Source: an uncultured Candidatus Saccharibacteria bacterium (lineage in GTDB: Bacteria; Patescibacteriota; Minisyncoccia; Phycocordibacterales; EsbW-18). Taken from it: a stretch of DNA of 64,000 bases. The position numbers and the translations under genes were made by a program. The stretch lies in contig CAYUSN010000001.1 of assembly GCA_964447415.1 (NCBI GenBank), forward strand, positions 121,727-185,726, given 5' to 3'. Positions 12,805 to 26,612 of the stretch are shown piece by piece. Under the pieces are notes generated by a model. That model saw nothing but the letters and a program-made list of their open reading frames with translations, had not been told where the DNA came from and did no database searches. Every line of letters begins with the position of its first letter. Position 1 is the first letter of the stretch.

Positions 12805-12805
12805 T

Positions 12806-12935: not shown

Positions 12936-12942
12936 AAAAACT

Positions 12943-13356
12943 ATGTCAGATGAAGCAACAGTACAGGCGGGAGCGGACGAGAAGGTAGAAGTTCCCGCGC
13001 AATTCAAGGATTTGGTTTCAAAAATCGAAACCATGTCAGTGATTGAACTCAACGAGCTCGTCAAAGTGCTCGAGAAAAAATTCGGCGTCTCGGCGGTTGC
13101 AGCAGCGGCAGCACCTGCCGCAGCAGCGGCAGGCGAGGAAGAGAAGTCGGAGTACACCGTTGAGCTTACGTCAGTTGGCGACAACAAAATCGCCGTCATC
13201 AAGGCGGTGAAGGAAGTCTCGGGTCTCGGCCTCAAGGAGGCAAAAGATCTCGTTGACGGCGCACCGGGCGTCATCAAAGAGGCGGTCAAGAAAGAAGACG
13301 CCGAGGTGATGAAGAAAAAAATCGAGGAAGCAGGTGGCAAAGTGACTCTTAAATAG
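12943..13356 (+). CDS. rplL: 50S ribosomal protein L7/L12.
   Basis: Typical L7/L12: an N-terminal helix, an Ala-rich hinge and a C-terminal domain (…[11 protein letters not shown]…). Confidence 0.9.
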
Positions 13357-13393: not shown

Positions 13394-13436
13394 GAGAAAA
13401 CACCCCCCCCCTGCACAGGGGGGGGGGTGTTTTCTG
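13394..13436 (+). terminator. Intrinsic terminator with a homopolymeric stem: AAAACAC-C9-tgcaca-G10-TGTTTT.
   Basis: A C9 run and a G10 run form the stem, with an A tract before and a T tract after. Confidence 0.6.
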
Positions 13437-13472
13437 TTATCATGTATTCACATCTATTCATAAACTCTGCAT

Positions 13473-15476
13473 ATGATATATAAGAAACATCTCTTCCTCG
13501 TACTTGCGTCACTCATGTTGGCAACCCCCGTGTCTGCAGCAACCGTGCCGGTGTTTGATTGGGTTGCTGCACGAACCGACTCACTTATTGGTCTTCAGGG
13601 AGGATTCAGTGTGGCCTACACACCAGCAGTTGATTCGGCTGATGGCAGTATCTACATCTCGAATTTTTTTACAGGGACACCTGATTTTGACCCTGGAGCA
13701 GGAACGGATTCCATTGCTTCAAATGGAGAGGAGGATAACTTCCTCTCCAAGTTTGATTCGAATGGCGCATACCTATGGACAAAAACATGGGGGGGCACGG
13801 GAAGAGAGCGCACGCTAGGAGCCACAGTTGATGGCAACGGAAACGTCTATAGTGTGGGCACATTTTCAAGCACGGTTGATTTTGATCCAGGAGCTGGGAC
13901 ATTCTTTGCTACATCAACAGGCGGTACTGATAACTTTGTTTCAAAATTTGATTCCGATGGAAACTTTATTTGGGCAAAGACGTGGGGGAATGCAAGCAAC
14001 CAAAACACCCTCCGAATGGTTACAACAAACGATACAGGAGATGTTTTTGTGCACGGACACTTTACAGGTACGGTTGATTTTGATCCGAGCGCTGGAACGG
14101 CATTTGCAACATCAACGGCAGGGAATGATATTTTTCTTTCAAAATTTGACTCGGATGGAAACTTTGAGTGGGTGAAAGCGTGGGGAGGGACAGGGGACGA
14201 CGGTTCATCGGGAGTTAAAATTGCGAATGACGGAGCGCTCTTCTTTACAGGTATTTTTACGAACACAATTGATCTTGATCCAAGCGTGGCTACTGCCTCA
14301 TCAACATCAGCAGGAAGTTATGATAGATATTTTTTGAAACTTTCTACAACAGGTGATCTTGTGTATGCAAAAACATGGGGAGGAACCGGATTTGATTCTG
14401 CCGGGGAACTTCAGTTTGGGAATGGTGATGCGGTGTATGTTTTTGGAGGATTTTCAAGCACGGTTGATTTTGATCCAGGTCCTGGCGAGGCGTTTGCGAC
14501 ATCAACAGGAGGTTTGGACGCATACTTTTCAAAATTTGATGCTGATGGAAATTTCGAATGGGTAAAAACATGGGGAGGCTCGGGGACCGACGTTGCTGTT
14601 AACGCGGTTGTGAATGAAAACACCCTTACTGTTGTTGGATATTTTTCAAGCACGGTTGATTTTGATCCAAGCGCCGGAACTGACTCAAAAGTATCTGTAG
14701 GAGGACTTGATGTGGCCATCTCTACATACTCACCAGATGGAACATATATCCGTACGGACACATTCGGTGGTTCGCTCGACGATTTTCTTGATTCGTTACC
14801 ACAGGGCGTGGCCTTTGGTTCGGACACGCTCGTTCTCGCAGCCTATTACAAAAGCGCACCCGCCGATTTCGATCCAGGTCCTGGAGTTTCGTCTGCATCA
14901 TCAAATGGAACATCGCTCTACATTTCTTCCCTCAACCTCGTTGAAGCTTCAGTCGGAGTCTCCCCGACATCAGGTACTGCCGAAGAGGGGGGTGATACGC
15001 TCACCTACGATATTGTGCTCAATGCTCCGCCGACTGATGACGTCGTCATCACTGTTACCCCCGACAGCCAACTCTCAGTTTCCACAACAACACTCACGTT
15101 CGCCTCAACCACATGGGACACACCGCAGACAGTGACGGTCACCGCGGTTGACGATGAGGAAAACGAAGATGACCCGCACACCGGCGTTGTGACGCACACT
15201 GCGGCCTCAGACGATGCATTGTATGACGGCATTACCGTCGGAAGCGTGACCGTGTCAATTGATGAAAACGATTCATCCGGTGGCGGTGGCTCCTCGCGTA
15301 GTACCCGCGCCATTCAGGCACTCACCGACACCGAGCCCGAAACACTTCCGCCTGCAGTACCGTTGACACCCGAGCAGGTGCAGGAGGCAATAGTCAAGGT
15401 GAAACAACAACTCATCATCGTTATCCAACAGCTTATCGTGCTGCTACAGGAAGAGATTGCAAAACTCTCCAGATAG
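13473..15476 (+). CDS. Secreted SBBP-type beta-propeller repeat protein with a Calx-beta/cadherin-like beta-sandwich and a conserved C-terminal motif. Paralog 1 of 3.
   Basis: Signal peptide MIYKKHLFLVLASLMLATPVSA. About 8 repeats of the form …VDFDPxxGTxxATSxGGxDxFxSKFDSDGxFEWVKTWGG…. C-terminal …SSGGGGSSRS…QQLIIVIQQLIVLLQEEIAKLSR. Confidence 0.75.
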   Translation: MIYKKHLFLVLASLMLATPVSAATVPVFDWVAARTDSLIGLQGGFSVAYTPAVDSADGSIYISNFFTGTPDFDPGAGTDSIASNGEEDNFLSKFDSNGAYLWTKTWGGTGRERTLGATVDGNGNVYSVGTFSSTVDFDPGAGTFFATSTGGTDNFVSKFDSDGNFIWAKTWGNASNQNTLRMVTTNDTGDVFVHGHFTGTVDFDPSAGTAFATSTAGNDIFLSKFDSDGNFEWVKAWGGTGDDGSSGVKIANDGALFFTGIFTNTIDLDPSVATASSTSAGSYDRYFLKLSTTGDLVYAKTWGGTGFDSAGELQFGNGDAVYVFGGFSSTVDFDPGPGEAFATSTGGLDAYFSKFDADGNFEWVKTWGGSGTDVAVNAVVNENTLTVVGYFSSTVDFDPSAGTDSKVSVGGLDVAISTYSPDGTYIRTDTFGGSLDDFLDSLPQGVAFGSDTLVLAAYYKSAPADFDPGPGVSSASSNGTSLYISSLNLVEASVGVSPTSGTAEEGGDTLTYDIVLNAPPTDDVVITVTPDSQLSVSTTTLTFASTTWDTPQTVTVTAVDDEENEDDPHTGVVTHTAASDDALYDGITVGSVTVSIDENDSSGGGGSSRSTRAIQALTDTEPETLPPAVPLTPEQVQEAIVKVKQQLIIVIQQLIVLLQEEIAKLSR

Positions 15477-15504
15477 ACCGGAACTTAAAAATCAACTACC
15501 CCAT

Positions 15505-17484
15505 ATGACATATAAAAAACATCCCTTTCTCGTACTTGCGTCACTCATGTTGGCAACCCCCGTGTCTGCAGCAACCGTGCCGGTGTTTGATTGGGTGAAT
15601 ACGTGGGGAGGAACAGGGAGTGATTCCGGTTCGAACGTTGTTTTTGACGGAGATGAAAATATCTATACCGTTGGTCGTTTTAATGTAACTACCGACTTTG
15701 ATTCCAGTGCAGGTACCGCATATGCGACATCAAGTGGTGAGGGAGACGCTTACTTATTAAAATCAGATCCAAATGGAATCTTTGAGCTGGTAAAAACATG
15801 GGGTGGTAGTGGTGATGACACTGCTAGTTTGGTTAGTTCTGACGGACTAGGTGGGCTTGTTGCATCCGGACGATTCTCAAACACCGTTGACCTAGACCCT
15901 GACGTAGGCACTGTGTTTGCAACATCAAGTGGCGGATATGATATGTATCTTTCCAGATTTGATACGGACGGTGTGCTTGAATGGTCGGGTGTCTGGGGTA
16001 GTACAGGCAGTGATGTCGGTGCGTTTGTTGTCCCCACTTTCAGTGACGCTGTTTATGTTATGTCTAACTTTGCCGGCGTCATTGATTTTGACCCTGGTGT
16101 AGATACTGCCTTTGCGACATCAAGTGGTGGATTTGACATGGCCCTTTCCAGGTTTAACTCAGACGGCATTTTTGAATGGGTGAAGACATGGGGAGGAACA
16201 GGCAACGAAATTCTGGGGGGCAGTTCATCGGTGGGACTTGACGGGGTGGGAGGAGTGTACGTTCTCGGTAATTTTAGTGGTACGGTTGATTTTGATCCCA
16301 GTGTCAGCACCACTTATGCAACCTCAAGCGGATCAGCGGATGCTTTTGTGTCTAAGTTTGACTCGGACGGTACGTTTGAATGGGTGAAAACGTGGGGAGG
16401 AACAGGGAGTGATGGGGCGCGCGGGGTGTTTTTCGATGACGAAGATAATATCTATATGATTGGTTCTTTTGCGAACACCGTCGACTTTGACCCTAGTGCA
16501 GGTACCGCGTATGCAACCTCAAGCGGAAACGCTGATGCTTCACTCTCCAAATTTGACTCAGAAGGTACATTTGAGTGGGTGAAGGCGTGGGGCGGAACAG
16601 GTAATGAGTTTGTAGAAAACGGTGCGGTTAATGAGGGTGATGTCTATGTATTTGGTTCTTTTGCGAACACGGTTGACTTTGATCCGAGCGCCAGCACCGC
16701 CTTTGCAACTTCAAACGGATCAGACGACGCCTTCGTGTCTAGGTTTAACTCGGAGGGTACGTTTGAATGGGTGAAGACATGGGGAGGAACCTCATCAGAC
16801 ACCTCCAAACATATGAATTTTCTCGATGGAAAAGCATTTATAAGCGGTACTTTTCAAAACACCGCCGACTTTGATTTCTCTCTCGGAACAGAAAACCGAA
16901 CATCGGCCGGTTCCGGTGATGTGTATCTCCTTGTCCTCAACCTCCTCGAACCCGCCGTCACCGTTTCTCCAACCTCGGACAGTTTAGACGAAGCAGGTGC
17001 CGGCACTTTTGACTACGACCTCGTGCTTGCAACGCCGCCCGAGAACGACGTCGTTATCACCATCACTCCTGATGTACAGGTGTCTGTGTCCACCACGTCA
17101 CTCACCTTCGCTTCAACCACATGGGACATTGCACAGACAGTGACGGTGAGTGTTGTTGACGATGAGGAGAACGAAGACGATCCGCACACCGGCGTCATAA
17201 CGCACACCGCAGTATCAGATGATGCGGCATATGACGGTATTACTATCAGCAGTGTGACGGTGTCAATTAACGAGAACGACTCGTCCGGCGGCGGTTCTTC
17301 ACGAAGCAGTGTGCGCGCTGTTCAGGCAATCACCGATGTTGAACCCGAGACACCCCCGCCCGCAGTACCGCTGACGCCTGAGCAAGTACAGGAGGCGATA
17401 GACAAGGTGAAACAACAGCTTGTGGCCGTTCTTCAACAGCTTATCGTGCTGCTACAGGAAGAGATTGCAAAACTCTCCAGATAG
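15505..17484 (+). CDS. Secreted SBBP-type beta-propeller repeat protein, paralog 2 of 3.
   Basis: Signal peptide and C-terminal motif identical to paralog 1. Start MTYKKH at 15505. Confidence 0.75.
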   Translation: MTYKKHPFLVLASLMLATPVSAATVPVFDWVNTWGGTGSDSGSNVVFDGDENIYTVGRFNVTTDFDSSAGTAYATSSGEGDAYLLKSDPNGIFELVKTWGGSGDDTASLVSSDGLGGLVASGRFSNTVDLDPDVGTVFATSSGGYDMYLSRFDTDGVLEWSGVWGSTGSDVGAFVVPTFSDAVYVMSNFAGVIDFDPGVDTAFATSSGGFDMALSRFNSDGIFEWVKTWGGTGNEILGGSSSVGLDGVGGVYVLGNFSGTVDFDPSVSTTYATSSGSADAFVSKFDSDGTFEWVKTWGGTGSDGARGVFFDDEDNIYMIGSFANTVDFDPSAGTAYATSSGNADASLSKFDSEGTFEWVKAWGGTGNEFVENGAVNEGDVYVFGSFANTVDFDPSASTAFATSNGSDDAFVSRFNSEGTFEWVKTWGGTSSDTSKHMNFLDGKAFISGTFQNTADFDFSLGTENRTSAGSGDVYLLVLNLLEPAVTVSPTSDSLDEAGAGTFDYDLVLATPPENDVVITITPDVQVSVSTTSLTFASTTWDIAQTVTVSVVDDEENEDDPHTGVITHTAVSDDAAYDGITISSVTVSINENDSSGGGSSRSSVRAVQAITDVEPETPPPAVPLTPEQVQEAIDKVKQQLVAVLQQLIVLLQEEIAKLSR

Positions 17485-17512
17485 ACCGGAACTTAAAAAT
17501 CAACTACCCCAT

Positions 17513-19522
17513 ATGACATATAAAAAACATCCCTTTCTCGTACTTGCGTCACTCATGTTGGCAACCCCCGTGTCTGCAGCAACCGTGCCGGTGTTTGATT
17601 GGGTAAACGGAGGGGACAGTTCTCTGATAAATACTACCATCGGTGGTTCCGCCCAAGTGTATAAAGTTGAAGTTGATACAAACGACGGGAGTATCTATGT
17701 TTCCGGACAGTTCACCGGCACACCCGATTTTGATCCGTCGGGCGATACGGACGAAATTGCTTCGGCGGGCGACAGAGACGCCTTTCTTTCTAAATTTGAT
17801 GCGGACGGCGGATATCTTTGGACGAAAACGTGGGGTTCAACCGCAGCTGACATTATTCGTGATGCGCTTGCCGTAGACACGAACAGCGACGTCTACGTTG
17901 CAGGTTCGTTCAGAGGAACGGTTGATTTTGATCCAGGTCCTGGCGAGGCGTTTGCGACATCAACAGGACAGAACGATGTGTTTTTCCTTAAACTTAATTC
18001 CGACGGAGAATTTGTGTGGCTCAAAACATGGGGCAAAACAGGATCAGAAACAGGATTCCCGTTTGATATAGAGGAAGCAACGGACGGGGGGGTTTTTGTA
18101 TACGGCGGATTTGACGGAACGGTTGATTTTGATCCAGGTCCTGGCGAGGTGTTTGCCACATCAACAGGAAGTGTTGATTTTGTGCTTTCAAAATTTGATG
18201 CAGACGGTACGTTTCAGTGGGTGAAAACATGGGGAAGCACCGGTTTTGATAGCGCGACATCCCTACATGAGGGTGAAGACGGATCGGTGTATCTTATGGG
18301 CCTATACGCTGGTACGACGGACTTTGATCCCGGCGCGGGCGTTGTATCGGTCGGGACAAACGGCGGTTCCGATGCGTTTGTTCTCAAACTTGATACGGAC
18401 GGATTGTTCCAATGGGTTCGTGTATGGGGGGGAGCTTCTACCGACGTCGCATACAGCGCAAACACCGACTCTACAGGCGGTTTGTATGTAGCGGGTTATT
18501 TTCAGGGCACTGCAGACTTAAATCCAACTGACGGTACAGCGACCACAACATCTGCAGGAGGCACAGACGCACTTCTCATGAAACTCGATTCAGACGGCAA
18601 TTTTGAGTGGGTGAAGACGTGGGGGAGCACGGGGTCGGACGATGTTCGTAAAACGGTTTTCTTTGACGACGGGTATCTTGTTCTTGGTAGGTTTTCGGAA
18701 ACCGTCGATTTTGATCCTGATGCCGGAGTAGATGAGAAGGTGGCGGCTGGTTCGGACGTGTCAATGTCTCTTTTCAATTTGAATGACGAGTATATACGCA
18801 CCGACACGTTCGGCGGGGCGCTTGATGAGTGGGTAGACAACGCTCCTGACAATAATTTGTCTTCGGGTAAGGCTCTTTTCGGCGGTTTTCACAAATCAGA
18901 TCCTGCCGATTTTGACCCGTCGGGGAAGGTGGCAGAACACTCAGGCGGTGGGGTGGATACAATGTATGTTGTCTCCTTCACCATGACGGAGCCGGCTGTC
19001 ACCATCACCGCATCCGACACAACGGCGTCCGAGGCGGGCGACACGGCGGCGTATTCCGTAGTCCTCACCGCGCCTCCGCATGAGGACGTCGTTGTTACTC
19101 TTACACCTGACAACCAGCTTTCTGTTTCTACCACTTCACTTACGTTCACGTCTGCAACGTGGGACATGCCGCAGACAGTGACGGTTACCGCAGTTGACGA
19201 TGAGGAAAACGAAAATGACCCGCACACCGGCGTCGTGACGCACACTGCGGCCTCAGACGATGTGTTGTATGACGGCATCACCGTCGGAAGCGTGACCGTG
19301 TCAATTGATGAAAACGATTCATCCAGCAGCAGCTCCTCGCGTAGTGCCCGTGCTATTCAGGCGATTACCGGCGCTGGGCCCGAAACACCTCTACAAACGG
19401 CACCGCTGACGCCCGAGCAAGTGCAGGAGGCAATAGTCAAGGTGAAACAACAACTCATCATCGTTATCCAACAGCTTATCGTGCTGCTACAGGAAGAGAT
19501 TGCAAGGCTTTCTGTCCAATAG
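17513..19522 (+). CDS. Secreted SBBP-type beta-propeller repeat protein, paralog 3 of 3.
   Basis: Same N-terminus and C-terminal motif. Start MTYKKH at 17513. Confidence 0.75.
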   Translation: MTYKKHPFLVLASLMLATPVSAATVPVFDWVNGGDSSLINTTIGGSAQVYKVEVDTNDGSIYVSGQFTGTPDFDPSGDTDEIASAGDRDAFLSKFDADGGYLWTKTWGSTAADIIRDALAVDTNSDVYVAGSFRGTVDFDPGPGEAFATSTGQNDVFFLKLNSDGEFVWLKTWGKTGSETGFPFDIEEATDGGVFVYGGFDGTVDFDPGPGEVFATSTGSVDFVLSKFDADGTFQWVKTWGSTGFDSATSLHEGEDGSVYLMGLYAGTTDFDPGAGVVSVGTNGGSDAFVLKLDTDGLFQWVRVWGGASTDVAYSANTDSTGGLYVAGYFQGTADLNPTDGTATTTSAGGTDALLMKLDSDGNFEWVKTWGSTGSDDVRKTVFFDDGYLVLGRFSETVDFDPDAGVDEKVAAGSDVSMSLFNLNDEYIRTDTFGGALDEWVDNAPDNNLSSGKALFGGFHKSDPADFDPSGKVAEHSGGGVDTMYVVSFTMTEPAVTITASDTTASEAGDTAAYSVVLTAPPHEDVVVTLTPDNQLSVSTTSLTFTSATWDMPQTVTVTAVDDEENENDPHTGVVTHTAASDDVLYDGITVGSVTVSIDENDSSSSSSSRSARAIQAITGAGPETPLQTAPLTPEQVQEAIVKVKQQLIIVIQQLIVLLQEEIARLSVQ

Positions 19523-19545
19523 AACTTCTTACACAAACCCGCAAA

Positions 19546-19576
19546 AAACACCCCACAAAGGGGTGTTTTTGTTTTA
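19546..19576 (+). terminator. Intrinsic terminator (AAAACACCCC-acaaa-GGGGTGTTTT then TGTTTT).
   Basis: Hairpin plus U tract after the third paralog. Confidence 0.6.
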
Positions 19577-19604
19577 ATGAAGAATGCGTCTATAATCGGG
19601 GTGT

Positions 19605-20162
19605 ATGGATTTGCTTGCAAAACTGTTCGGGGATGTAACGCTCGTACGCCTGATGCGCTTTTTCCTGTTTCACCCCGACGGCGTCTTTACCTCACAAGCG
19701 CTCTCGGAACACCTGCATACTCCGATACGCGCGCTTACCGGACCGCTCTCATGGCTGAAATCAGCCGGGTTTGCAAAAAAACGCGCGAAGGGATGGACAC
19801 TCGACCCCGCGTTCCCGCACATGGTATCTCTGCGCGAGTTATTACTCGGCAACATGCTTGCGGACGTCTCCATCGAGGACCGTATTGCCCGCGCCGGCGC
19901 CGTGAAGCTCATCGTTGCCTCGGGTATTTTCGTGGAAGGGGACACTGATACACGAACGGACGTGCTCATCGTCGCCGACCGGCTCAATGAACGGGCGCTC
20001 AAGCGCGCAGTGGCGGGTATTGAGGCCGACTGCGGGACGGACATCCGCTATGTGGCACTTTCAACGAAAGATTTCCGGTATCGCATGGATATGAACGATC
20101 GTTTGCTCCGTGATGTCTTCGACTATCCGCACCGGAAACTGGTCAATAAACTCGGTGTATAG
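19605..20162 (+). CDS. Hypothetical protein, 185 aa. Possible N-terminal winged helix and a nucleotidyltransferase-like C-terminal segment.
   Basis: ORF with balanced composition. GIFVEGDTDTRTDVLIVAD resembles a Pol-beta nucleotidyltransferase motif only weakly. Confidence 0.45.
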   Translation: MDLLAKLFGDVTLVRLMRFFLFHPDGVFTSQALSEHLHTPIRALTGPLSWLKSAGFAKKRAKGWTLDPAFPHMVSLRELLLGNMLADVSIEDRIARAGAVKLIVASGIFVEGDTDTRTDVLIVADRLNERALKRAVAGIEADCGTDIRYVALSTKDFRYRMDMNDRLLRDVFDYPHRKLVNKLGV

Positions 20163-20187
20163 CCGTTCACCTTTTTTTCACACCCCA

Positions 20188-20221
20188 CCCGAAAGCATGC
20201 TTTCGGGTGGGGTGGAGCGCA
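20188..20221. repeat. Perfect 34-bp palindrome CACCCCACCCGAAAGCA|TGCTTTCGGGTGGGGTG.
   Basis: Two 17-bp arms with no loop. No U tract on either strand, so it is not a canonical terminator. Confidence 0.5.
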
Positions 20222-20483
20222 ATGAGCCTGTCGCCCAAAAAGACTCTCGCAGGGCGAGGAGCCCGAGAGGGAGCGTTCCGCCAGGAGGCGGAAACGCGTG
20301 TTTTTTGGGCGATTCAGGCGAATGAAGGGTTATCCACAAAGACGGTAAAGGACACGGCATGCGGTGCTATCATAAAAGACATTAAAAGTCGAAATAGCGC
20401 CCTCGGGCACGTTTTTAAGGAAAAATAAGAACTATCCTTGGAAACACATTAAAAATTTCCACTAGTAAACATCTCATTAACGT

Positions 20484-21173
20484 ATGGATATTCTCGGTTC
20501 AACAGGCGTCACGGTGGCAGGATCACTCTCATCGGTCTGGGCAGGAGTCATCGCATTTCTGCCGAAGCTGATCGTCGCCCTCATCGTCTTTATCGTCGGC
20601 TGGATTATCGCGTCACTGCTTGCAAAAGCGGTTGATCAGGTGCTCAAGTCGGTGAAACTCGACATGGCGCTTCGCAGCGCGGGTATGGAACAGACGCTCG
20701 CACGTGCAGGGTTCTCGCTCAATTCAGGCAAGTTCATCGGCGAGCTCGTCCGTTGGTTCATCATCGTGGTCTTCTTGATTGCCGCGCTTGAAATCGTCAA
20801 CCTCACACAGGTGACCGATTTCTTGAGCAACGTGGTCTTGGGCTACCTCCCGCAGGTGATTGTTGCGGTCCTCATCATGCTGGTCTCGGTGGTGATTGCG
20901 GAGGCGGTTCGCAAGCTCGTGATTGCGTCGGCAAAAGCAACACACATCAAGATGGCGGGATTCCTCGGTGCACTCTCGCGCTGGGCGATTCTTATCTTCG
21001 CGCTCCTGGTCGCGCTCTCACACCTCGGTATCGGCGTCATGTTTTTGCAGACGCTCTTCACCGGCGTGGTGATTGCACTTGCGCTCGCGTTCGGTCTCTC
21101 ATTCGGTCTTGGTGGTCAGCAGGCAGCTGCGCGCTACCTTGAGCACTTGGGCAACGAGATGAAACACGATTAA
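20484..21173 (+). CDS. Polytopic membrane protein with repeated conserved TM helices (MscS N-terminal-like).
   Basis: Several hydrophobic helices and an internal repeat (…LPKLIVALIVFIVGWIIASLLAKAV… / …LPQVIVAVLIMLVSVVIAEAVRKLV…). Confidence 0.55.
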   Translation: MDILGSTGVTVAGSLSSVWAGVIAFLPKLIVALIVFIVGWIIASLLAKAVDQVLKSVKLDMALRSAGMEQTLARAGFSLNSGKFIGELVRWFIIVVFLIAALEIVNLTQVTDFLSNVVLGYLPQVIVAVLIMLVSVVIAEAVRKLVIASAKATHIKMAGFLGALSRWAILIFALLVALSHLGIGVMFLQTLFTGVVIALALAFGLSFGLGGQQAAARYLEHLGNEMKHD

Positions 21174-21235
21174 GAAAAGCACGAAAGTCGAATATCGAAA
21201 TTCGAAAATCCGCCCGCGCTGTACAGCGCAGGCGG
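21174..21235. repeat. Half copy (left arm) of the palindromic intergenic repeat, followed by a GC hairpin AATCCGCCCGCGCTGTACAGCGCAGGCGGATT.
   Basis: AAGCACGAAAGTCGAATATCGAAATTCGAAAA matches the left-arm consensus of the copies at 12806, 31778 and 34806. Confidence 0.55.
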
Positions 21236-21302
21236 ATTCGTGTATCGTCGCAGATAGAAAAAACTGTTACACAAAACGCTGAATCGGCGAAAGGGGTTTC
21301 AA

Positions 21303-21908
21303 ATGACATATCAGACGGCGAAGTCGAGGGTGAATCGCGCGATCATGCTTCTGGTCGCCACGTTCTTCTGTTTTCTCGGCGTGCTCGCGCTGACCCTCAA
21401 GCGCGTTCTGCGTGCGGATGAAAGCGTCGTGACGTGGCGCCTGTTGGTTGCTCTGGTGCTTTTCGCTGCGGTGTGGATGCTGTGGCGCACTGTGCTCAAG
21501 AGAATCGACGAGTGTCATTCCATCGAGCGCGCGTGGAAGGAGAACATTGAAGGGTTTTCTCTTTTCATGTTCATCGTTGCGCACGAACTTCGCAAGGGTG
21601 AGGTATCCGCACTCTTGCATCTCTGGAGATTTCATTCGGAGAAACGTGCGACGCGCGAGTGGAGCGTGTATCAAATTGAGGATGCCGCGAAGACGTACCG
21701 CGACGGGTCGGAGGCGTTTCTGTTCGCAATCATTCGTATGTGCGGGTCGGGGCATCTGGACTTCTCCCCGAAGCACTACCACCACCTCGTCATCGGTGAG
21801 GAGTTGTGGGGTGTTGCAAAGAGGAGATATCCGATCTCGGGCTTCTCGGTCAAGCAGAGAAGCGAGCTCGAAGCAGCAGAACGGTCCGTCGAGACCGCTT
21901 CCGCCTGA
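21303..21908 (+). CDS. Hypothetical membrane protein, 201 aa, with two N-terminal TM helices.
   Basis: Preferred over the overlapping minus-strand ORF 21267-21974, which has R/P/H-rich antisense-like composition. Confidence 0.45.
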   Translation: MTYQTAKSRVNRAIMLLVATFFCFLGVLALTLKRVLRADESVVTWRLLVALVLFAAVWMLWRTVLKRIDECHSIERAWKENIEGFSLFMFIVAHELRKGEVSALLHLWRFHSEKRATREWSVYQIEDAAKTYRDGSEAFLFAIIRMCGSGHLDFSPKHYHHLVIGEELWGVAKRRYPISGFSVKQRSELEAAERSVETASA

Positions 21909-22012
21909 CGGTTGCAGCAGTTCTTTCACGGCAGTACACCGCTCTCTCCTTGGGGGCGGTGCTCCATTTTCCACAGGTAATGCACAAAACAGTCCGAAAA
22001 AGTTGACGAATT

Positions 22013-22041
22013 TAAAAAGTCCGTATAGTATAAGCGAGCTT
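22013..22041 (+). promoter_or_regulatory. Sigma70-like promoter for tuf: TTGACG-17-TAGTAT.
   Basis: Sequence match to the -35/-10 hexamers with 17-nt spacing, about 100 nt upstream of tuf. Confidence 0.4.
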
Positions 22042-22142
22042 ACACAATGCGCGCTTAGCGTATTTTTTGTCGGAAGCGTGCGCTTCTCGAGGGGTTAAAG
22101 TAGAGGGCCACTATTTTTAGCAACTTTTAGCATTCTACGTAT

Positions 22143-23345
22143 ATGGCAGCAGAATTTGATCGTTCGAAACCGCACGTCAACGTCGGAACCATCGGTCACG
22201 TTGACCACGGTAAGACGACTCTCACCGCAGCTATTCTCCACGTCCTGGACATGAACAAGGACAAGGGATACGGCGCACGCGTCGAAGGTATTGATAACAT
22301 CGACAAGGCACCGGAAGAGAAGGCGCGCGGTATTACTATCTCACTCCACCACTCGGAGTACTGGACGCCGAACCGTCACTACGCGCACATCGATGCGCCG
22401 GGACACGCGGACTACATCAAGAACATGATCACCGGTGCCGCTCAAATGGACGGCGCAGTCTTGGTGGTCGCAGCTCCGGACGGAGCGATGCCGCAGACCC
22501 GAGAGCACATCCTCTTGGCAAAGCAGGTTGGCGTTCCGAAAATGATCGTCTTCCTCAACAAGTGCGACATGGTTGCCGATGCGGAACTTATTGACCTCGT
22601 TGAAGAGGAAGTCCGCGAAATGCTTACGAAATACGGTTTTGACGGCAAGGAGACGCCGTTTGTTCGCGGTTCAGGCCTCAAAGCGCTTGAATCAAAGTCG
22701 GTTGACGACCCGGAGGCCATGAAGGTCCTCGAGCTCGTGCAGACGCTGGACACCTACATCACTGAGCCGGTTCGCGAGACGGACAAGCCGTTTCTCATGC
22801 CGGTTGAAGACATCTTCTCAATCGAAGGACGCGGCACCGTGGTGACCGGCCGTATCGAGCGTGGAGAAATCAAAGTGGGTCAGGACATCGAAGTCGTCGG
22901 ACTTGCGCCGACACAGAAGACGACGGTGACCGGTATCGAAATGTTCAACAAGTCGCTCAATGAGGGAAAGGCGGGCGACAACGCGGGAATTCTTCTCCGC
23001 GGTCTCAAGAAAGAGGATGTGACGCGAGGACAGGTCATTGCGGCTCCGGGTTCGGTAACACCGCACACGGACTTCGAGGCAGAAGTGCTCATTCTCACGA
23101 AAGATGAAGGCGGACGACACACACCGTTCGTCTCCGGCTACAAGCCGCAGTTCTACATCCGCACAACCGACGTTACCGGAGAGGTGACGCTCAATGAGGG
23201 TGTGCAGATGGTGATGCCTGGCGACACCGTTACATTCAAGGTGAAGCTCACGGCGCCGATTGCACTTGAAGCACAACAGCGTTTCGCTATCCGCGAGGGT
23301 GGCAAGACGGTGGGCGCAGGAGTCGTCACAAAGATTGTTGCGTAA
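22143..23345 (+). CDS. tuf: Elongation factor Tu.
   Basis: [18 protein letters not shown] and NKCD GTPase motifs and full-length EF-Tu conservation. Confidence 0.97.
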
Positions 23346-23349
23346 TTAA

Positions 23350-23480
23350 TCCAGCACACAACTTCCCGTCGTTGCTGATATCGCAAGATGTCTGCGAAGC
23401 GGGAAGTTGTCGTATCTGGAAAAAATTGTTACAATCGCTTCGTTCACCGCAACAAAGATAACGGGAAGTTGTGTGCTGGA
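23350..23480. repeat. Hairpin element, copy C. A perfect 19-bp inverted repeat TCCAGCACACAACTTCCCG…CGGGAAGTTGTGTGCTGGA encloses ~95 nt.
   Basis: Starts 4 nt after the tuf stop. The interior carries a degenerate third arm copy (CGGGAAGTTGTCGTATCTGGA) and a TTGTCG-17-TACAAT promoter-like motif facing rpsJ. Confidence 0.65.
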
Positions 23481-23517
23481 CATGCCTCAGTAATTGATAT
23501 ACAGTGTCCCGCGTAGT

Positions 23518-23886
23518 ATGAGTACTTTGAAACCAAAAACACCACGAAAGACGAAGAAAGAAAAAGCGCACGACGAGGCGCCGCACAAGCTGCGCATCCG
23601 CGTTCGTGCCTACGAACACAAACTGCTCGACGAATCGGTGAAGCAGATTATGGATACCGCGACGAAGTACGAAGCGGAAGTCATCGGCCCAATACCGCTT
23701 CCCACCGAGCGTTCAATGTATACGGTCAACCGCGGCGCATTCATCGATAAAAATGCGCGCGAACAGTTTGAAATACGCGTGCACAAACGGGTGCTTGATA
23801 TCACGAACCCGTCGCCGAAAGTGATTGAAGCGCTCACCTCGCTGTCGCTTCCCTCAGGAGTCAATATTGAAGTCAAAATGATGTAA
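23518..23886 (+). CDS. rpsJ: 30S ribosomal protein S10 with a Lys-rich N-terminal extension.
   Basis: KLRIRVRAYEHKLLD…GPIPLPT…EIRVHKRVLDI matches the S10 core. ATG at 23518 preferred over TTG at 23494. Confidence 0.85.
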   Translation: MSTLKPKTPRKTKKEKAHDEAPHKLRIRVRAYEHKLLDESVKQIMDTATKYEAEVIGPIPLPTERSMYTVNRGAFIDKNAREQFEIRVHKRVLDITNPSPKVIEALTSLSLPSGVNIEVKMM

Positions 23887-23887
23887 A

Positions 23888-23920
23888 CAAAAAACCACCC
23901 TACGAGGGGTGGCTTTTTGT
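23888..23920 (+). terminator. Intrinsic terminator (AAAAACCACCC-tacga-GGGGTGGCTTTTTGTT).
   Basis: Hairpin plus T tract directly after rpsJ. Confidence 0.55.
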
Positions 23921-23982
23921 TATGCACACGGAAGAAAAAATCGTTGCCAGGTGATTTTGAGGAAGTGCTATACTTACGGGAT

Positions 23983-26574
23983 ATGAAGTCATCACTATTT
24001 TTTATGCGGTTGGGAGTTATTTCAACCTCCGTAGTATTTTCACTTTTTTGTGTTGGTGTTTCTCATGCACAGGCAGCAACACTGTATTTTAATGGTGTAG
24101 TGAATTCAAATTGGAATACGTTGGGTAACTGGTGGACAGATGTAGGGTTCTCTGCGCCAGCAGGGAGTCTTCCAGGCGTGGGTGATGATGTGATTATTTC
24201 TGCTGACGTACTTTCAAATAGCGGTCCTGCGGCATCTGTAAACAGCATGCTGGTGAGTGGCCCCGCTGTTATAGGAATACCGGTAACCGTTGCAGTAGAT
24301 GCATCGTTTCATGACTCAAGCTCGCTCCGTAACCTTGTTATTGGTGACGCATGTTTTGCAACAACTGCAACAAACGGGCCGCGGTTTTTCGCAGGCCTGG
24401 GCCAGAGCAACAGGTCTTGGAGTAACTTTGCGGCGGCACCAAACGGTGATGTATATGGTGTTACGACTACTAATAATGAAATTTACAAACAAACAGGTGG
24501 TACGGGAGACTTTGTTGATTTGGGTATATTTATCTCCGGTGCATTTAGTATCGGCGTTGCACCAAATGGTAATGTGTATGCGGGCTCATACGGTGGTGAT
24601 ATGTATATGCAGACAGGGGGTGTGGGTAGCTTTGACGCTCTCAATCAAACTTTCAGAAATTGGTTAGGTATCACGGTGGCTCCAAACGGGGATGTATACG
24701 CCACGGGCTTTAACGAGGACATCTACAAACAAACATCTGGCGTGGGTGATTTTGTAGCTCTCGGACAGACTGTTCGTTCTTGGCAAACAATGGCGGCTGC
24801 ACCAAATGGTAATATTTATGCAATTGCAAATGATAATAAAATATACAAACAAACCTCCGGCATGGGAGATTTTGTTGATATAGGCGCACCAGTCAAATCG
24901 TGGTCTGGTATCACTATTGCTGCAAATGGGGACGTATATGCAAGTGTGTTTAACGGTGATATTTACGTACAATCAGGTGGTACTGGTGACTTCAATGCTC
25001 TCGGAGAAACATCGAGGAATTGGAGAGGTATGACAGTTGTCCCGAACGGTAACATTTATACTGGTGTTGTGGGTGGAGATGTATACATGCAGGATAATAG
25101 TGGTACAGTCACGGGGGCTACTACTGTTTGTTCCGCAGCGCTTCCTGTGGTCACGACATCAGCAACAACGTTGGGGATAAGTGGATCCACCTCACTGCTT
25201 TTAGGATCGATTGATGATACTGGTGGGGAAAGTATAAGTACACGGGGTTTTGAATACGGCCTGACAGAAAGTTATGGAGCCGCAACGTCTGAATCAGGGG
25301 TTTTTAACTCTGGCTCCTATAGTTTTTTTGCGGAGAACTTAACATGTGGCAGCGCCTATCATTTTCGAGCATTTGCTACGAATGGGGTAGGAACTGCTTA
25401 CGGTGCGGATGAAACATTTACCACACCAGCCTGTTCATCGGACAGCACTCTTTATGGCATTGATGGTTCGGGTAGTAATTCTGATGACCCACAACTGTAT
25501 GTGCTTGACCCTCTTACGGGTCTGAAGATAGAAACAATTGGACCGGTTGGTTTCTATGTCACCGGAATGGCATTTGACCCTACAACGGGTATTTTGTATG
25601 GAAGTACGGGAGGAAGTGGAATTAATTCAAAAAGTTTGATTACCATAAATACAGAGACAGGAAACGGAACATATCTTGGTGCTATTAAGAATGCGGGAAA
25701 TACATCACTGAATATGCCAGATATCACCTTCCGTTCAGATGGTAGATTATACGGATGGTATGGAAATGATAGTAGTCTCTACACAATCGATTTGACTTCT
25801 TGTGATGGAGTTGATGTCTCCTGTCTCGCAACAAAAGTTGGAGATTCGGGCTTAAGTAGCAACGGTGGCAACGGGCTCGCATTTGATAGTAATGATACCT
25901 TATTTCAATTTGGGAATTATGACGATAGTTATTATCAGATAAATCCAGACACTGGGGAGTCCGTTGCCGAATTCTCATTTACAAATCCTACTGGGGATAG
26001 TCATCCTATAGCGGCAGCCTCTTTCAATCAAAGTGACACTCTCTATCTTTCTCGGTTGTATTACGGAAGCCCAGGAGATTTAGTGATAGTTAACACCGAT
26101 ACGTATGAAATATTTTCTACAGGTGAGAATAATGATGAGATGGCTTACATGGACGCAATTGCGTTTTATATTCCTCCCGACACCACCGCCCCTGTCATCA
26201 CTATTCTCGGCGACAATCCAACCACTATCACCGTTGGTGATACATACACCGACGCAGGAGCAACAGCAGAAGATGATACCGACGGTGATATTACTGGAGA
26301 CATTGTGACAACCAACAACGTCAACGCTGCAGTTGCCGGTACGTACACGGTTGTCTATGATGTATCTGACACGGCACTCAATACTGCATCTGCAGAACGA
26401 ACGGTTATTGTGAATGAAGAAGAATCGAGTGGTGGAGGAAGTAGCAGACGCCGTGACGTTGCCGACGAACCCGTTAATTCTTCACCTACAACTCAAACAC
26501 CACTCGAGCAGCTTCTACTGGAACTCATTGAAGCACTCAAACTGCTCATTGCTGAGTTGATGAAAACACGGTAA
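23983..26574 (+). CDS. Large secreted protein: ~45-aa beta-propeller-type repeats, an FN3-like domain, a second propeller-like region, a bacterial Ig-like (DUF5011-type) domain and the shared C-terminal motif.
   Basis: Signal peptide MKSSLFFMRLGVISTSVVFSLFCVGVSHAQA. Repeats of the form …APNG(D/N)VYA…DIYKQTSG.GDFV.LG…. C-terminal …SSGGGSSRRR…LLELIEALKLLIAELMKTR. Confidence 0.7.
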   Translation: MKSSLFFMRLGVISTSVVFSLFCVGVSHAQAATLYFNGVVNSNWNTLGNWWTDVGFSAPAGSLPGVGDDVIISADVLSNSGPAASVNSMLVSGPAVIGIPVTVAVDASFHDSSSLRNLVIGDACFATTATNGPRFFAGLGQSNRSWSNFAAAPNGDVYGVTTTNNEIYKQTGGTGDFVDLGIFISGAFSIGVAPNGNVYAGSYGGDMYMQTGGVGSFDALNQTFRNWLGITVAPNGDVYATGFNEDIYKQTSGVGDFVALGQTVRSWQTMAAAPNGNIYAIANDNKIYKQTSGMGDFVDIGAPVKSWSGITIAANGDVYASVFNGDIYVQSGGTGDFNALGETSRNWRGMTVVPNGNIYTGVVGGDVYMQDNSGTVTGATTVCSAALPVVTTSATTLGISGSTSLLLGSIDDTGGESISTRGFEYGLTESYGAATSESGVFNSGSYSFFAENLTCGSAYHFRAFATNGVGTAYGADETFTTPACSSDSTLYGIDGSGSNSDDPQLYVLDPLTGLKIETIGPVGFYVTGMAFDPTTGILYGSTGGSGINSKSLITINTETGNGTYLGAIKNAGNTSLNMPDITFRSDGRLYGWYGNDSSLYTIDLTSCDGVDVSCLATKVGDSGLSSNGGNGLAFDSNDTLFQFGNYDDSYYQINPDTGESVAEFSFTNPTGDSHPIAAASFNQSDTLYLSRLYYGSPGDLVIVNTDTYEIFSTGENNDEMAYMDAIAFYIPPDTTAPVITILGDNPTTITVGDTYTDAGATAEDDTDGDITGDIVTTNNVNAAVAGTYTVVYDVSDTALNTASAERTVIVNEEESSGGGSSRRRDVADEPVNSSPTTQTPLEQLLLELIEALKLLIAELMKTR

Positions 26575-26580
26575 CGCAAG

Positions 26581-26612
26581 ACCCGCCCGAAAGGGCGGGT
26601 TTTCATATTTTT
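26581..26612 (+). terminator. Intrinsic terminator (ACCCGCCC-gaaa-GGGCGGGT then TTTCATATTTTT).
   Basis: GC hairpin plus T tract. Confidence 0.55.

What the first reader, a model, noticed from the sequence alone, without database searches (positions are those of the whole stretch)
13473..26574. Shared C-terminal module on four giant surface proteins (Gly/Ser/Arg patch, Pro/Thr linker, amphipathic Leu/Ile/Gln helix), a candidate sorting or anchoring signal
The three SBBP paralogs end with the same module:
…DENDSSGGG(G)SSRS-(T)RAIQA(L/I)TD(T/V)EPETPPPAVPLTPEQVQEAI(V/D)KVKQQL(I/V)…QQLIVLLQEEIAKLSR.

The unrelated propeller/FN3 protein at 23983-26574 ends with …EESSGGGSSRRRDVADEPVNSSPTTQTPLEQLLLELIEALKLLIAELMKTR.

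So a conserved C-terminal module sits on otherwise different ectodomains. That is how sortase LPXTG tails, PEP-CTERM tails and type IX C-terminal domains behave. This module has no Cys, no TM stretch and no LPXTG. It has an amphipathic helix that could form a coiled coil. It may be an undescribed envelope-attachment or secretion tag. Anchoring mechanisms in CPR are poorly known.
Basis: seen in the sequence. Interest (0 to 1): 0.65.

Follow-up and report, generated by a model that had tools for sequence, protein, structure and literature searches.

The report
C-terminal helix tail on CPR surface proteins
Three neighbouring secreted proteins of a candidate-phyla-radiation bacterium end in a conserved, previously uncatalogued helix on a flexible stalk; the same helix ends about 50 other, unrelated surface proteins of this bacterial group and probably bundles them or holds them at the cell envelope, although its function has not been tested.

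Summary

**The three paralogs.** The tandem SBBP-propeller paralogs (13473-15476, 15505-17484, 17513-19522) each end in a Gly/Ser/Arg patch, a 20-aa Pro-rich linker and a 37-38-aa helix.
- A profile built only from tails of other genomes finds these three helices at E 8e-12 to 2e-15, and nothing else in the window.
- Shuffled tails score at most 14 bits, against 47-59 bits for the real ones.

**Distribution.** The same helix ends about 50 further proteins.
- It sits at the extreme C-terminus in all but two.
- The carriers span at least 20 Pfam ectodomain types.
- Every carrier whose organism is named is a Patescibacteria MAG.
- No Pfam, NCBIfam or PDB entry covers it.

So it is a real, lineage-restricted module, not paralog shuffling.

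**The fourth protein** (23983-26574) has the same layout, but its shorter helix is not detectably related. Its nearest homologue has patch, short helix and PG_binding_1.

**Function.** Nothing supports a cleaved sorting signal: there is no signature motif, transmembrane segment or basic tail, and no processing enzyme nearby. The helix has g-a-d-e hydrophobic heptads and near-invariant Gln/Glu. It has almost no aromatics, and its estimated membrane-insertion cost is about +8 kcal/mol. In some relatives it adjoins PG_binding_1.

I favour an uncleaved coiled-coil bundling or docking helix that retains ectodomains at the envelope. That function is inferred, not shown.

The parts
13473..15476 (+). 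P1, SBBP beta-propeller surface protein (667 aa). Signal peptide aa 1-22; propeller about 24-490; beta-sandwich about 500-597; tail 598-667.
   Evidence: ORF and translation. AF2 model with pLDDT 80.8: propeller and beta-sandwich, disordered 602-630, single helix 633-666. Identical to database protein P0001. Fold resembles the CylK propeller and the integrin alpha headpiece.
15264..15302 (+). P1 acidic + Gly/Ser/Arg patch, ENDSSGGGGSSRS
   Evidence: Equivalent patches lie 49-113 residues from the C-terminus in 17 of 26 tail-bearing proteins.
15303..15362 (+). P1 linker, TRAIQALTDTEPETLPPAVP: a short beta-like RAIQALT segment followed by a Pro-rich spacer
   Evidence: AF2 pLDDT is below 50 over 602-630.
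15363..15473 (+). P1 terminal helix, LTPEQVQEAIVKVKQQLIIVIQQLIVLLQEEIAKLSR (family member)
   Evidence: HMM built from other genomes: 46.0 bits, E 1.6e-13. Predicted helix 633-666.
15505..17484 (+). P2, SBBP paralog (659 aa). Patch at nt 17272-17310, linker 17311-17370, terminal helix 17371-17481.
   Evidence: HMM E 2.1e-15. Identical to P0006.
17513..19522 (+). P3, SBBP paralog (669 aa). Poly-Ser patch at nt 19310-19345, linker 19346-19405, terminal helix 19406-19519.
   Evidence: HMM E 8e-12. Identical to P0007.
19544..19570 (+). Intrinsic terminator closing the P1-P2-P3 unit
   Evidence: 11-bp stem followed by a T-run. A matching terminator after rplL at 13403-13426 opens the unit.
23983..26574 (+). 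P4, a different ectodomain (propeller-like repeats plus Bact_surface_Ig-like domain, 863 aa) with an analogous tail
   Evidence: PF16403 at aa 739-810, E 8.6e-19. The last 175 aa before the tail are 60% identical to P0152. A single-gene unit between terminators at 23895-23912 and 26578-26603.
26416..26454 (+). P4 acidic + Gly/Ser/Arg patch, EEESSGGGSSRRR
   Evidence: Its codons differ from those of P1-P3.
26497..26571 (+). P4 short terminal amphipathic helix, TPLEQLLLELIEALKLLIAELMKTR. Not a detectable member of the helix family. Positionally equivalent to the helix that precedes PG_binding_1 in P0152 and P0055.
   Evidence: 1.5 bits against the family HMM, the same as shuffles. hhalign probability 1.5%. 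P0152 and P0055 architectures.
26578..26603 (+). Intrinsic terminator directly after the P4 stop codon, showing that the helix is the true C-terminus
   Evidence: No PG_binding_1 remnant downstream in any frame.

Best explanation
P1-P3 carry a Patescibacteria-specific C-terminal module that is not in Pfam or NCBIfam. It consists of a flexible Gly/Ser/Arg hinge, a short beta-like segment, a Pro-rich spacer and a helix of about 35 aa. The helix consensus is (L/M)TPxE(K/R)QxAIxxIKxQLIxLIxQLIxLLQxQ(L/I)A, ending within a few residues of the C-terminus.

Proposed mechanism:
- The protein is exported by Sec using its N-terminal signal peptide.
- The tail is not cleaved.
- The terminal helix, hydrophobic at the g, a, d and e heptad positions, packs with the same helix of other tail-bearing proteins into a multi-helix coiled-coil bundle. 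Partners would be the tandem paralogs, small 'tail-only' proteins, and proteins that also carry a PG_binding_1 domain.
- The bundle, on its flexible stalk, keeps the ectodomains multimeric and tethered at the cell envelope.

What is shown: the module exists, is conserved and modular, sits at the C-terminus, is restricted to Patescibacteria among named carriers, and is predicted as a helix after a disordered segment.

What is inferred: bundling, the identity of the partners, and retention at the envelope.

P4 uses an analogous but unrelated shorter helix. In its closest relative that helix sits immediately before a PG_binding_1 domain.
For: **Family and position**
- The independent HMM hits only the three tails in the window.
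- 28 of 30 database clusters, 14 of 14 genome tails and 4 of 4 metagenome tails have the helix at the C-terminal end.
- The 36-sequence alignment has no gaps through the helix core.

**Coiled-coil character**
- Hydrophobic columns 26/27, 29/30, 33/34, 36/37, 41 and 44 give an hhpphhp (g-a-d-e) pattern.
- Polar positions are conserved: Q32 in 33 of 36 sequences and Q/E40 in 36 of 36. This fits specific protein-protein packing better than lipid binding.
- Composition is Q 18%, L 17%, A 13%, I 13%. Aromatics are under 1%. Mean net charge is +0.6.
- The only weak Pfam and PDB similarities are to other coiled-coil segments such as FlxA, the MerR dimerisation helix, SlyX and leucine zippers.
- AF2 predicts a disordered linker followed by one long helix.

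**Not a transmembrane segment**
- The summed Hessa insertion cost is +4.7 to +18 kcal/mol (median +7.8; P1 +8.4). A real transmembrane helix in the same window gives -4.2.

**Link to the envelope**
- All four window proteins, and all but one carrier with a complete N-terminus, have signal-peptide-like N-termini.
- PG_binding_1 lies directly before the helix in P0136, P0138, P0144, P0145, P0146 and the L018 protein. It lies directly after a short helix in P0055 and P0152.
- Homologous ectodomains in other phyla carry T9SS or dockerin domains at this position.

**Candidate partners**
- Small proteins consist of only a signal peptide, a patch and the helix (P0121, P0124, P0142).
- Tail genes occur in tandem: three in the window, three in L003, two in L033.
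- Helices within one genome are far more alike than helices from different genomes, which average about 40% identity.
Against: - No oligomer was modelled or measured. The tools predict single chains only.
- No partner was identified in this window. It has no PG_binding_1 domain and no tail-only protein.
- The within-genome similarity of helices is explained at least partly by gene conversion or recent paralogy, not necessarily by co-assembly.
- The P1 helix is unusually hydrophobic (Kyte-Doolittle 19-mer mean 1.72). Some membrane contact of a bundle cannot be excluded.
- The conserved Gly/Ser/Arg patch and the beta-like segment after it have no assigned role in this model.
- The family looks small at HMMER significance: 30 clusters, and 20 strict-pattern loci in 185,579 species genomes. 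Its generality across Patescibacteria is therefore uncertain.
Confidence: 0.45

Rival explanations
1. Membrane anchor. The C-terminal helix, alone in-plane or as an oligomeric bundle, embeds in the outer leaflet of the cytoplasmic membrane. The Gly/Ser/Pro stretch acts as the wall-spanning stalk. The precedent is the C-terminal helix of the Corynebacterium PS2 S-layer protein.
For: - The helix is at the C-terminus in nearly all carriers, after a flexible linker and a Sec signal peptide.
- Its hydrophobic face is wide, and the P1 Kyte-Doolittle 19-mer mean of 1.72 is borderline for a transmembrane segment.
- PS2 is anchored by a C-terminal helix that forms a hexameric coiled coil in the mycomembrane, and it is released when 27 C-terminal residues are deleted (PMC12337289).
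Against: - The insertion cost is +4.7 to +18 kcal/mol for every tail.
- The core carries 3-4 conserved Gln residues.
- There are almost no aromatic residues and the net charge is near zero. Known in-plane bacterial anchors are cationic and aromatic (general knowledge).
- The helix occurs next to PG_binding_1, which would already provide attachment.
- One member has the helix N-terminally (P0129).
Confidence: 0.2
2. Pure multimerisation. The helix only makes the secreted ectodomains di-, tri- or oligomeric to raise binding avidity. It has no role in attachment to the producer cell, and the proteins may be released.
For: - The coiled-coil features are the same as for the best explanation.
- Most carriers have no wall-binding domain.
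- The window has no PG_binding_1 partner.
Against: - Recurrent cis-association with PG_binding_1, and positional replacement by PG_binding_1, T9SS or dockerin domains in homologues, point to envelope association.
- Tail-only small proteins have no cargo to multimerise.
Confidence: 0.2
3. True sorting signal. The tail is recognised and processed by a dedicated, still unknown Patescibacteria enzyme or secretion step, as LPXTG is by sortase or PEP-CTERM by exosortase.
For: - One conserved, lineage-restricted C-terminal tag sits on many unrelated secreted proteins.
- The patch motif [GS]n-S-R is conserved upstream.
- A sortase-like gene lies next to one tail gene, in L017.
- A CAP-domain membrane protein is adjacent in 5 of 13 genome loci.
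Against: - There is no signature motif, transmembrane helix or basic cluster of the known tripartite signals.
- The last residues are variable: N, R, Q, Y, K, L and others.
- No candidate enzyme is in the window or consistently nearby.
- The helix can be N-terminal (P0129), and a related short helix can be internal, before PG_binding_1.
Confidence: 0.08
4. No module at all. The similarity is only recent paralogy plus low-complexity or coiled-coil composition.
For: - P1-P3 are tandem paralogs whose ends are homogenised by gene conversion.
- The P4 tail is not statistically related.
Against: - A profile that excludes the window proteins finds them at E<=8e-12, while shuffles reach at most 14 bits.
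- The helix is at the C-terminus of proteins with at least 20 different ectodomain families in many MAGs.
Confidence: 0.03

Closest known systems
C-terminal anchoring helix of the Corynebacterium glutamicum S-layer protein PS2 (CspB)
   Same: A Sec signal peptide at the N-terminus and a single C-terminal helix that forms a multi-helix coiled coil and tethers a surface protein. Deleting about 27 C-terminal residues releases the protein (PMC12337289).
   Different: - The PS2 helix is a true hydrophobic transmembrane segment in a mycomembrane. The tail here costs about +8 kcal/mol to insert, is Gln-rich, and belongs to organisms with no known outer membrane.
- There is no sequence similarity.
- PS2 is one protein; this tail is shared by many ectodomain types.
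Small C-terminal sorting signals (LPXTG/sortase, PEP-CTERM/exosortase, GlyGly-CTERM/rhombosortase, MYXO-CTERM) and the T9SS C-terminal domain
   Same: One short, lineage-restricted C-terminal element is appended to many unrelated secreted proteins. SBBP homologues in Bacteroidota carry the T9SS domain at the same position. The general concept is described in 10.1101/2023.06.07.544157.
   Different: - There is no signature motif, transmembrane helix or basic cluster, and no beta-sandwich.
- No cognate enzyme was found nearby.
- It is not strictly dependent on a free C-terminus (P0129).
- There are no Pfam or NCBIfam hits.
Non-covalent wall-binding modules of monoderm surface proteins (PG_binding_1, SLH, LysM, CWB2) and cohesin-dockerin docking
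   Same: Modular terminal domains that retain diverse ectodomains at the envelope. PG_binding_1 is found beside the helix or in its place in relatives.
   Different: The tail is a single helix with no globular ligand-binding fold. Binding to peptidoglycan or to a scaffold protein has not been demonstrated.
Coiled-coil envelope stalks and tethers (Braun lipoprotein Lpp, Deinococcus SlpA, archaeal SlaB)
   Same: Parallel coiled coils that set the spacing between envelope layers or tether them (general knowledge; SlpA and SlaB papers are listed).
   Different: - Those have a lipid, beta-barrel, SLH or transmembrane anchor at one end, and Lpp has an invariant C-terminal Lys for cross-linking.
- Here the last residue varies and no anchor is evident.
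C-terminal amphipathic-helix anchors of periplasmic DD-carboxypeptidases (E. coli PBP5/PBP6) and pestivirus Erns
   Same: An exported protein is held on the membrane surface by a C-terminal amphipathic helix without a transmembrane segment (general knowledge; Erns in PMC3937272, listed).
   Different: Those helices are cationic and/or aromatic. This one is Gln/Leu/Ile/Ala-rich, near neutral and almost free of aromatics.

Membership tests
Patescibacteria C-terminal Gln/Leu/Ile helix family (defined here; consensus TPxE(K/R)QxAIxxIKxQLIxLIxQLIxLLQxQ) | Significant match to a profile built from members in other genomes | tested here: met
   P1, P2 and P3 score 46.0, 52.1 and 40.6 bits (E 1.6e-13, 2.1e-15, 8e-12). 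P4 scores 1.5 bits, which is not met.
Patescibacteria C-terminal Gln/Leu/Ile helix family (defined here) | The helix ends within a few residues of the stop codon of a signal-peptide-bearing protein | tested here: met
   P1-P3 helices end at the last residue and each has a signal peptide of 22 aa. The same holds for 28 of 30 clusters, 14 of 14 genome tails and 4 of 4 metagenome tails.
Coiled coil | Heptad periodicity of hydrophobic residues over at least 4 heptads in a predicted alpha-helix | tested here: met
   g-a-d-e hydrophobic pattern in columns 19-44 of the 36-sequence alignment. AF2 helix at 633-666.
Coiled coil | Formation of a homo- or hetero-oligomeric helix bundle | not testable with these tools
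   Only single-chain structure prediction is available.
LPXTG / sortase cell-wall sorting signal | LPXTG-like pentapeptide near the C-terminus | tested here: not met
   None in the four tails. A regex over window ORFs found only one out-of-context match in a non-coding-looking ORF.
LPXTG / sortase cell-wall sorting signal | Hydrophobic transmembrane segment followed by a basic cluster | tested here: not met
   Summed insertion cost is +8.4 to +9.9 kcal/mol for P1, P2 and P4, against -4.2 for a real transmembrane helix. The C-terminal ends are AKLSR, ARLSVQ and MKTR.
LPXTG / sortase cell-wall sorting signal | Sortase encoded in the genome | tested here: inconclusive
   No sortase homologue in the 64-kb window (Pfam).
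PEP-CTERM / GlyGly-CTERM / MYXO-CTERM type signals | Signature motif (PEP, GG or Cys), then a transmembrane helix, then an Arg-rich cluster; NCBIfam model hit | tested here: not met
   No NCBIfam hit for the tails at E<=10 or E<=1. There is no Cys and no transmembrane segment.
T9SS C-terminal sorting domain (PF18962) | Pfam PF18962 beta-sandwich of about 80 aa at the C-terminus | tested here: not met
   Absent from all four window proteins. Present in the Bacteroidota SBBP homologues.
PG_binding_1 (PF01471) wall-binding proteins | PF01471 domain | tested here: not met
   No Pfam hit in P1-P4. A custom PG_binding_1 HMM found nothing in any window ORF at E<=1. The domain is present in relatives P0055, P0136, P0138, P0144-P0146 and P0151-P0156.
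Type I secretion C-terminal signal | Uncleaved C-terminal signal on a protein that lacks an N-terminal Sec signal peptide | tested here: not met
   All four proteins have N-terminal Sec-type signal peptides.
PS2-like C-terminal membrane-anchoring helix bundle | C-terminal helix hydrophobic enough to span or embed in a membrane; protein released when it is deleted | tested here: inconclusive
   Helix length is adequate (about 34 aa). It is too polar for monomeric insertion, but Kyte-Doolittle values reach 1.72. The deletion phenotype is not testable here.

The most novel reading that the evidence does not exclude
The tail is the address label of a Patescibacteria-specific surface-display system. 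In this reading, dozens of unrelated secreted ectodomains per lineage are plugged, through one conserved Gln-rich helix, into a common multi-helix scaffold. That scaffold might contain tail-only subunits and PG_binding_1-bearing subunits, or might be embedded in the membrane or S-layer. It would be a non-covalent, enzyme-free counterpart of sortase or T9SS anchoring in bacteria whose envelope biology is essentially unknown. The conserved [GS]n-S-R patch and the beta-like segment would be further recognition elements.
Probability: 0.25. Interest if true: 0.8.

Novelty: new variant of a known kind. Interest (0 to 1): 0.55.

Why it matters
Patescibacteria (CPR) make up a large share of bacterial diversity. 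Most are thought to live attached to host cells, yet how they display adhesins and enzymes on their surface is barely known.

A conserved, portable C-terminal module on many secreted proteins has three uses:
- It is a sequence handle for listing the surface proteome of these organisms.
- It poses a concrete hypothesis (helix bundling or docking, with or without PG_binding_1) that can be tested with peptides and in the few genetically tractable Saccharibacteria.
- It is a candidate new entry for domain databases, which now leave these tails unannotated.

If it proves to be only an oligomerisation helix, it is still a useful annotation but of modest biological reach.

Tried and rejected
- **Tail-only profile (A1) in the word-indexed 5.8-billion-protein search.** It returned nothing, not even the window's own proteins. 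The cause was probably candidate selection or bias filtering. The later exhaustive search and the local HMM searches worked.
- **The search for related loci with tail alignments A3 and A4.** I used hand-made degenerate DNA patterns instead.
- **Non-Patescibacteria pattern hits.** Hits in Pseudomonadales, Porticoccaceae, Bacilli, Alkaliflexus, Clostridiaceae and Chryseobacterium did not match the HMM and were discarded as chance.
- **Viral contigs.** Five pattern hits were an unrelated internal Leu/Gln-rich ORF, not tails.
- **Source contig.** Look-ups of P0001 and P0147 to reach the rest of the 306-kb contig found nothing on record. CPR affiliation rests on two points: homologues are named Patescibacteria, and there is no L30 gene between S5 and L15.
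- **P4 as a member of the helix family.** Rejected.
- **A lost PG_binding_1 domain downstream of P4.** Rejected. A terminator follows the stop codon and no remnant exists in any frame.
- **Monomeric transmembrane anchor.** Rejected on insertion energetics.
- **Lpp-like C-terminal Lys cross-link.** Rejected because the last residue is variable.
- **Solved-structure relatives.** None; only an insignificant 'TPAE' helix-cap match to ribosomal protein L29.
- **Literature.** Five searches found no description of this tail. One paper notes highly expressed Paceibacteria proteins with PG-binding domains (PMC10936435).
- **AF2 of P0144** (signal peptide, PG_binding_1, helix). It gave the two elements, but the output has no contact information, so whether the helix packs on the domain remains unknown.


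Full report
**What is in the window**

The region lies in a ribosomal-protein neighbourhood. L10 and L7/L12 are at 12271-13356, EF-Tu at 22143-23345 and S10 at 23494-23886. L3, L4 and the rest of the cluster run from 26948 on, followed by SecY. S5 is followed directly by L15 with no L30 gene between them. By general knowledge that is typical of candidate-phyla-radiation bacteria.

Two units are inserted into this cluster, each bounded by strong terminators:
- Three tandem genes, P1 13473-15476, P2 15505-17484 and P3 17513-19522, lie between terminators at 13403-13426 and 19544-19570.
- A single gene, P4 23983-26574, lies between terminators at 23895-23912 and 26578-26603.

All four proteins start with Sec-type signal peptides. 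No other ORF of the window ends this way.

**Is it more than chance?**

A full-length search with P1 found itself and its paralogs (P0001, P0006, P0007) on a 306,543-bp NCBI contig. It also found a dozen same-architecture homologues from other assemblies whose tails align without gaps through the helix.

I built an HMM from 33 tails with the three window proteins left out.
- It hits P1, P2 and P3 at E 1.6e-13, 2.1e-15 and 8e-12 among 915 six-frame ORFs of the window. The next hit is at E 0.29.
- One thousand shuffles of each tail never exceed 14 bits, against 47-59 bits for the real sequences.

The helix of P1-P3 is therefore a specific conserved sequence, not a compositional artefact.

P4 differs. 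Its helix scores 1.5 bits, inside the shuffle range. hhalign gives probability 1.5%. Its Gly/Ser patch is encoded by different codons.

**How far does the module reach?**

An exhaustive HMMER search of 1.84 billion representative proteins with a 45-column helix profile returned 30 clusters at E<=1e-3. In 28 of them the match ends within about 13 residues of the C-terminus. The proteins range from 41 to 1887 aa.

A strict degenerate DNA pattern for K/R-x-Q-h-x-x-L-h-x-Q-L-I-x-x-L-Q-x-Q gave the following:
- It found 20 places in one genome for each of 185,579 species.
- Thirteen of those loci hold 14 HMM-positive ORFs.
- Twelve of the 13 loci are from MAGs named Staskawiczbacteria, Minisyncoccia, Parcubacteria, Paceibacterota or Saccharibacteria. 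One is labelled only 'bacterium'.
- All 14 carry the helix at the very C-terminus.
- The hits in other phyla fail the HMM.

A second pattern found four metagenome contigs, all with the helix at the C-terminus of proteins of 958-1084 aa where the ORF was complete.

Twenty-six carriers scanned against Pfam show at least 20 different ectodomain families. These include Beta_helix, Bact_surface_Ig-like, Ice_binding, FG-GAP, NosD, SBBP, LTD, NHL, Cadherin-like, Flg_new and fn3.

Pfam, NCBIfam and PDB sequences contain no model or relative of the tail. The only weak matches are to other coiled-coil segments. Five literature searches found no description of it.

The module is real, portable, found only in Patescibacteria among named carriers, and uncatalogued in these libraries.

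**Anatomy of the module**

The consensus is (L/M)TPxE(K/R)QxAIxxIKxQLIxLIxQLIxLLQxQ(L/I)A, followed by 2-8 polar residues.
- Hydrophobic residues occupy alignment columns 19, 22, 26/27, 29/30, 33/34, 36/37, 41 and 44. This is an hhpphhp repeat, meaning heptad positions g, a, d and e.
- Gln at column 32 is present in 33 of 36 sequences. Gln/Glu at column 40 is present in 36 of 36.
- Composition is Gln 18%, Leu 17%, Ala 13% and Ile 13%. Aromatics are below 1% and mean net charge is +0.6.
- Upstream, 17 of 26 carriers have a [GS]n patch 49-113 residues from the end, usually closed by Arg.
- After the patch comes a short alternating segment, RAIQALT in the window and G(Q/R)VLGA(F/S)T in many others, and then a spacer.

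AlphaFold2 of P1 (14-sequence alignment, mean pLDDT 80.8) gives a beta-propeller at 24-490, a beta-sandwich at 500-597, a disordered stretch at 602-630 (pLDDT below 50) and one long helix at 633-666. The ectodomain resembles the CylK propeller and the integrin alpha headpiece.

**Context that bears on function**

1. *Equivalent position in other phyla.* SBBP homologues in Bacteroidota end in the T9SS sorting domain and others end in dockerin. The tail therefore occupies the position of known localisation modules.
2. *Association with PG_binding_1.* This domain sits directly before the terminal helix in P0136, P0138, P0144, P0145, P0146 and the L018 protein. It sits directly after a shorter amphipathic helix in P0055 (an SBBP homologue) and P0152.
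3. *P4 and P0152.* P0152 is 60% identical to P4 over the 175 residues before the tail. It then has an acidic/Gly/Ser/Arg patch, a short helix and PG_binding_1. P4 stops after the helix, and a terminator follows. P4 thus carries the 'pre-PG-binding' type of helix without the domain.
4. *Tail-only proteins.* Small proteins made only of a signal peptide, a patch and the helix exist (P0121, P0124, P0142). One protein has the helix right after its signal peptide (P0129).
5. *Clustering of tail genes.* There are three in the window, three in L003 and two in L033.
6. *Comparison with syntenic relatives.* L025, L032 and L033 have one or two SBBP-tail genes at the same place and no P4-like gene between S10 and L3. 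The triplication and the P4 insertion are therefore recent features of this genome.
7. *Gene conversion.* Within the triplet, the signal peptide and the helix are homogenised even at synonymous sites. Among identical residues, 76-94% of codons are identical, against 42-49% in the propeller. Part of the striking identity of the three tails is gene conversion.
8. *No processing enzyme.* No sortase, rhomboid or exosortase-like gene is among the window ORFs examined. Next to tail genes elsewhere, the only recurrent neighbour is a CAP/SCP-domain membrane protein (5 of 13 genome loci). A sortase-like gene occurs once.

**Mechanism**

A processed sorting signal is unlikely. The tail has no signature motif, no transmembrane helix and no basic cluster. 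Its last residue is variable, no enzyme recurs nearby, and occasional helices are not C-terminal.

A monomeric membrane anchor is also unlikely. The summed Hessa insertion cost of the best 19-residue window is +4.7 to +18 kcal/mol (P1 +8.4), against -4.2 for a real transmembrane helix of the same window. The helix also lacks the cationic and aromatic character of known in-plane anchors (general knowledge).

The pattern that remains has four parts: g-a-d-e hydrophobic heptads, near-invariant polar positions, a flexible stalk, and frequent neighbourhood with PG_binding_1. It is best read as an uncleaved coiled-coil helix that bundles with like helices. This would make the ectodomains multimeric and tether them to the envelope, directly or through partners that bind peptidoglycan.

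The closest documented precedent for a Sec-exported surface protein held by a C-terminal helix that forms a multi-helix coiled coil is PS2 of Corynebacterium glutamicum (PMC12337289). That helix, however, is a true transmembrane segment. Contact of a bundle with the membrane cannot be excluded here, since Kyte-Doolittle values reach 1.72. Bundling, partners and retention are all inferences; none was tested.

**Verdict**

The specific idea of a sortase-like sorting or secretion signal is not supported. The fourth protein is an analogue rather than a member.

The finding is a new variant of a known kind of feature, a terminal envelope-association or oligomerisation helix. It is of moderate to good interest because it offers a concrete entry point into surface display in Patescibacteria.

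Noticed in passing
window 23887-26610: The P4 surface-protein gene sits as a self-contained unit, with a terminator before and after it, between rpsJ (S10) and rplC (L3). These two genes are normally adjacent. Syntenic relatives L025 and L032 have only small ORFs there.
   Followed up: partly
window 13403-19570; L025, L032, L033: The SBBP-tail gene occupies a conserved slot upstream of a 185-aa cytoplasmic-looking protein and an MscS-like membrane protein. Copy number varies: 1 in L025 and L032, 2 in L033 and 3 in the window. Gene ends (signal peptide and tail) are homogenised by gene conversion.
   Followed up: yes
window 8527-11796 (C-terminus); L025 4474-7164: A different large secreted protein (Flg_new_2 domain) and its homologue in the syntenic relative both end in ...C-T-S-(V)L(E)D-x-S-E-x-x-DPDIREI. 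This is a second conserved C-terminal motif, and its meaning is unknown.
   Followed up: no
L003 4436-5485, L013 1778-2716, L018 4885-5847, L004 6681-7181, L008 1740-2441 and 3081-3647: A CAP/SCP-like (YkwD-like) domain membrane protein lies next to tail-bearing genes in 5 of 13 Patescibacteria genome loci from different lineages. It often has an N-terminal F(I/L)PHxxNxHxPH motif and a C-terminal transmembrane helix. None is in the window.
   Followed up: partly
L004 5280-6653 and 2780-3574; L008 7680-8000 and 1740-2441: Other secreted Parcubacteria proteins in these loci end in yet other conserved C-terminal motifs: ...W(L)xT(M/I)KxFFG(L/F)R and ...FxxLFT(I/F)S(F/P)xxVG. This suggests several distinct C-terminal tags in these organisms.
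   Followed up: no
P0124, P0125, P0127, P0130, P0137, P0141, P0142, P0144, P0145; L003, L004, L008, L013, L018: A motif G(Q/R/E)(V/I)LGA(F/S/E)T precedes both the terminal helix and PG_binding_1 domains in many family members. It occurs twice in P0144 and P0145. The window proteins have RA(I/V)QA(I/L)T at the corresponding place.
   Followed up: partly
window 35833-36941: S5 is followed directly by L15 with no L30 gene, which fits a CPR/Patescibacteria origin.
   Followed up: yes
window 39639-45037: An 861-aa protein with no Pfam hit is followed by a 928-aa HerA/TraG-D_C-type ATPase (VirD4/TraG-like coupling-protein features). The pair lies just after the ribosomal/SecY/Adk/Map cluster.
   Followed up: no
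window 13403-13427: The terminator after rplL is an unusual C9...G9 homopolymer hairpin that can form on both strands.
   Followed up: no
L001 557-4760; L021 4592-8059: MacB/FtsX-type ABC transporter genes (permease ending ...DALRYE, an ATPase, and an adaptor-like protein in L021) lie immediately beside tail-bearing genes in two unrelated loci.
   Followed up: no
L032 4749-5705: A signal-peptide + PG_binding_1 protein with a long, extremely acidic helical C-terminal half lies 4 kb upstream of the SBBP-tail gene in a syntenic relative.
   Followed up: no
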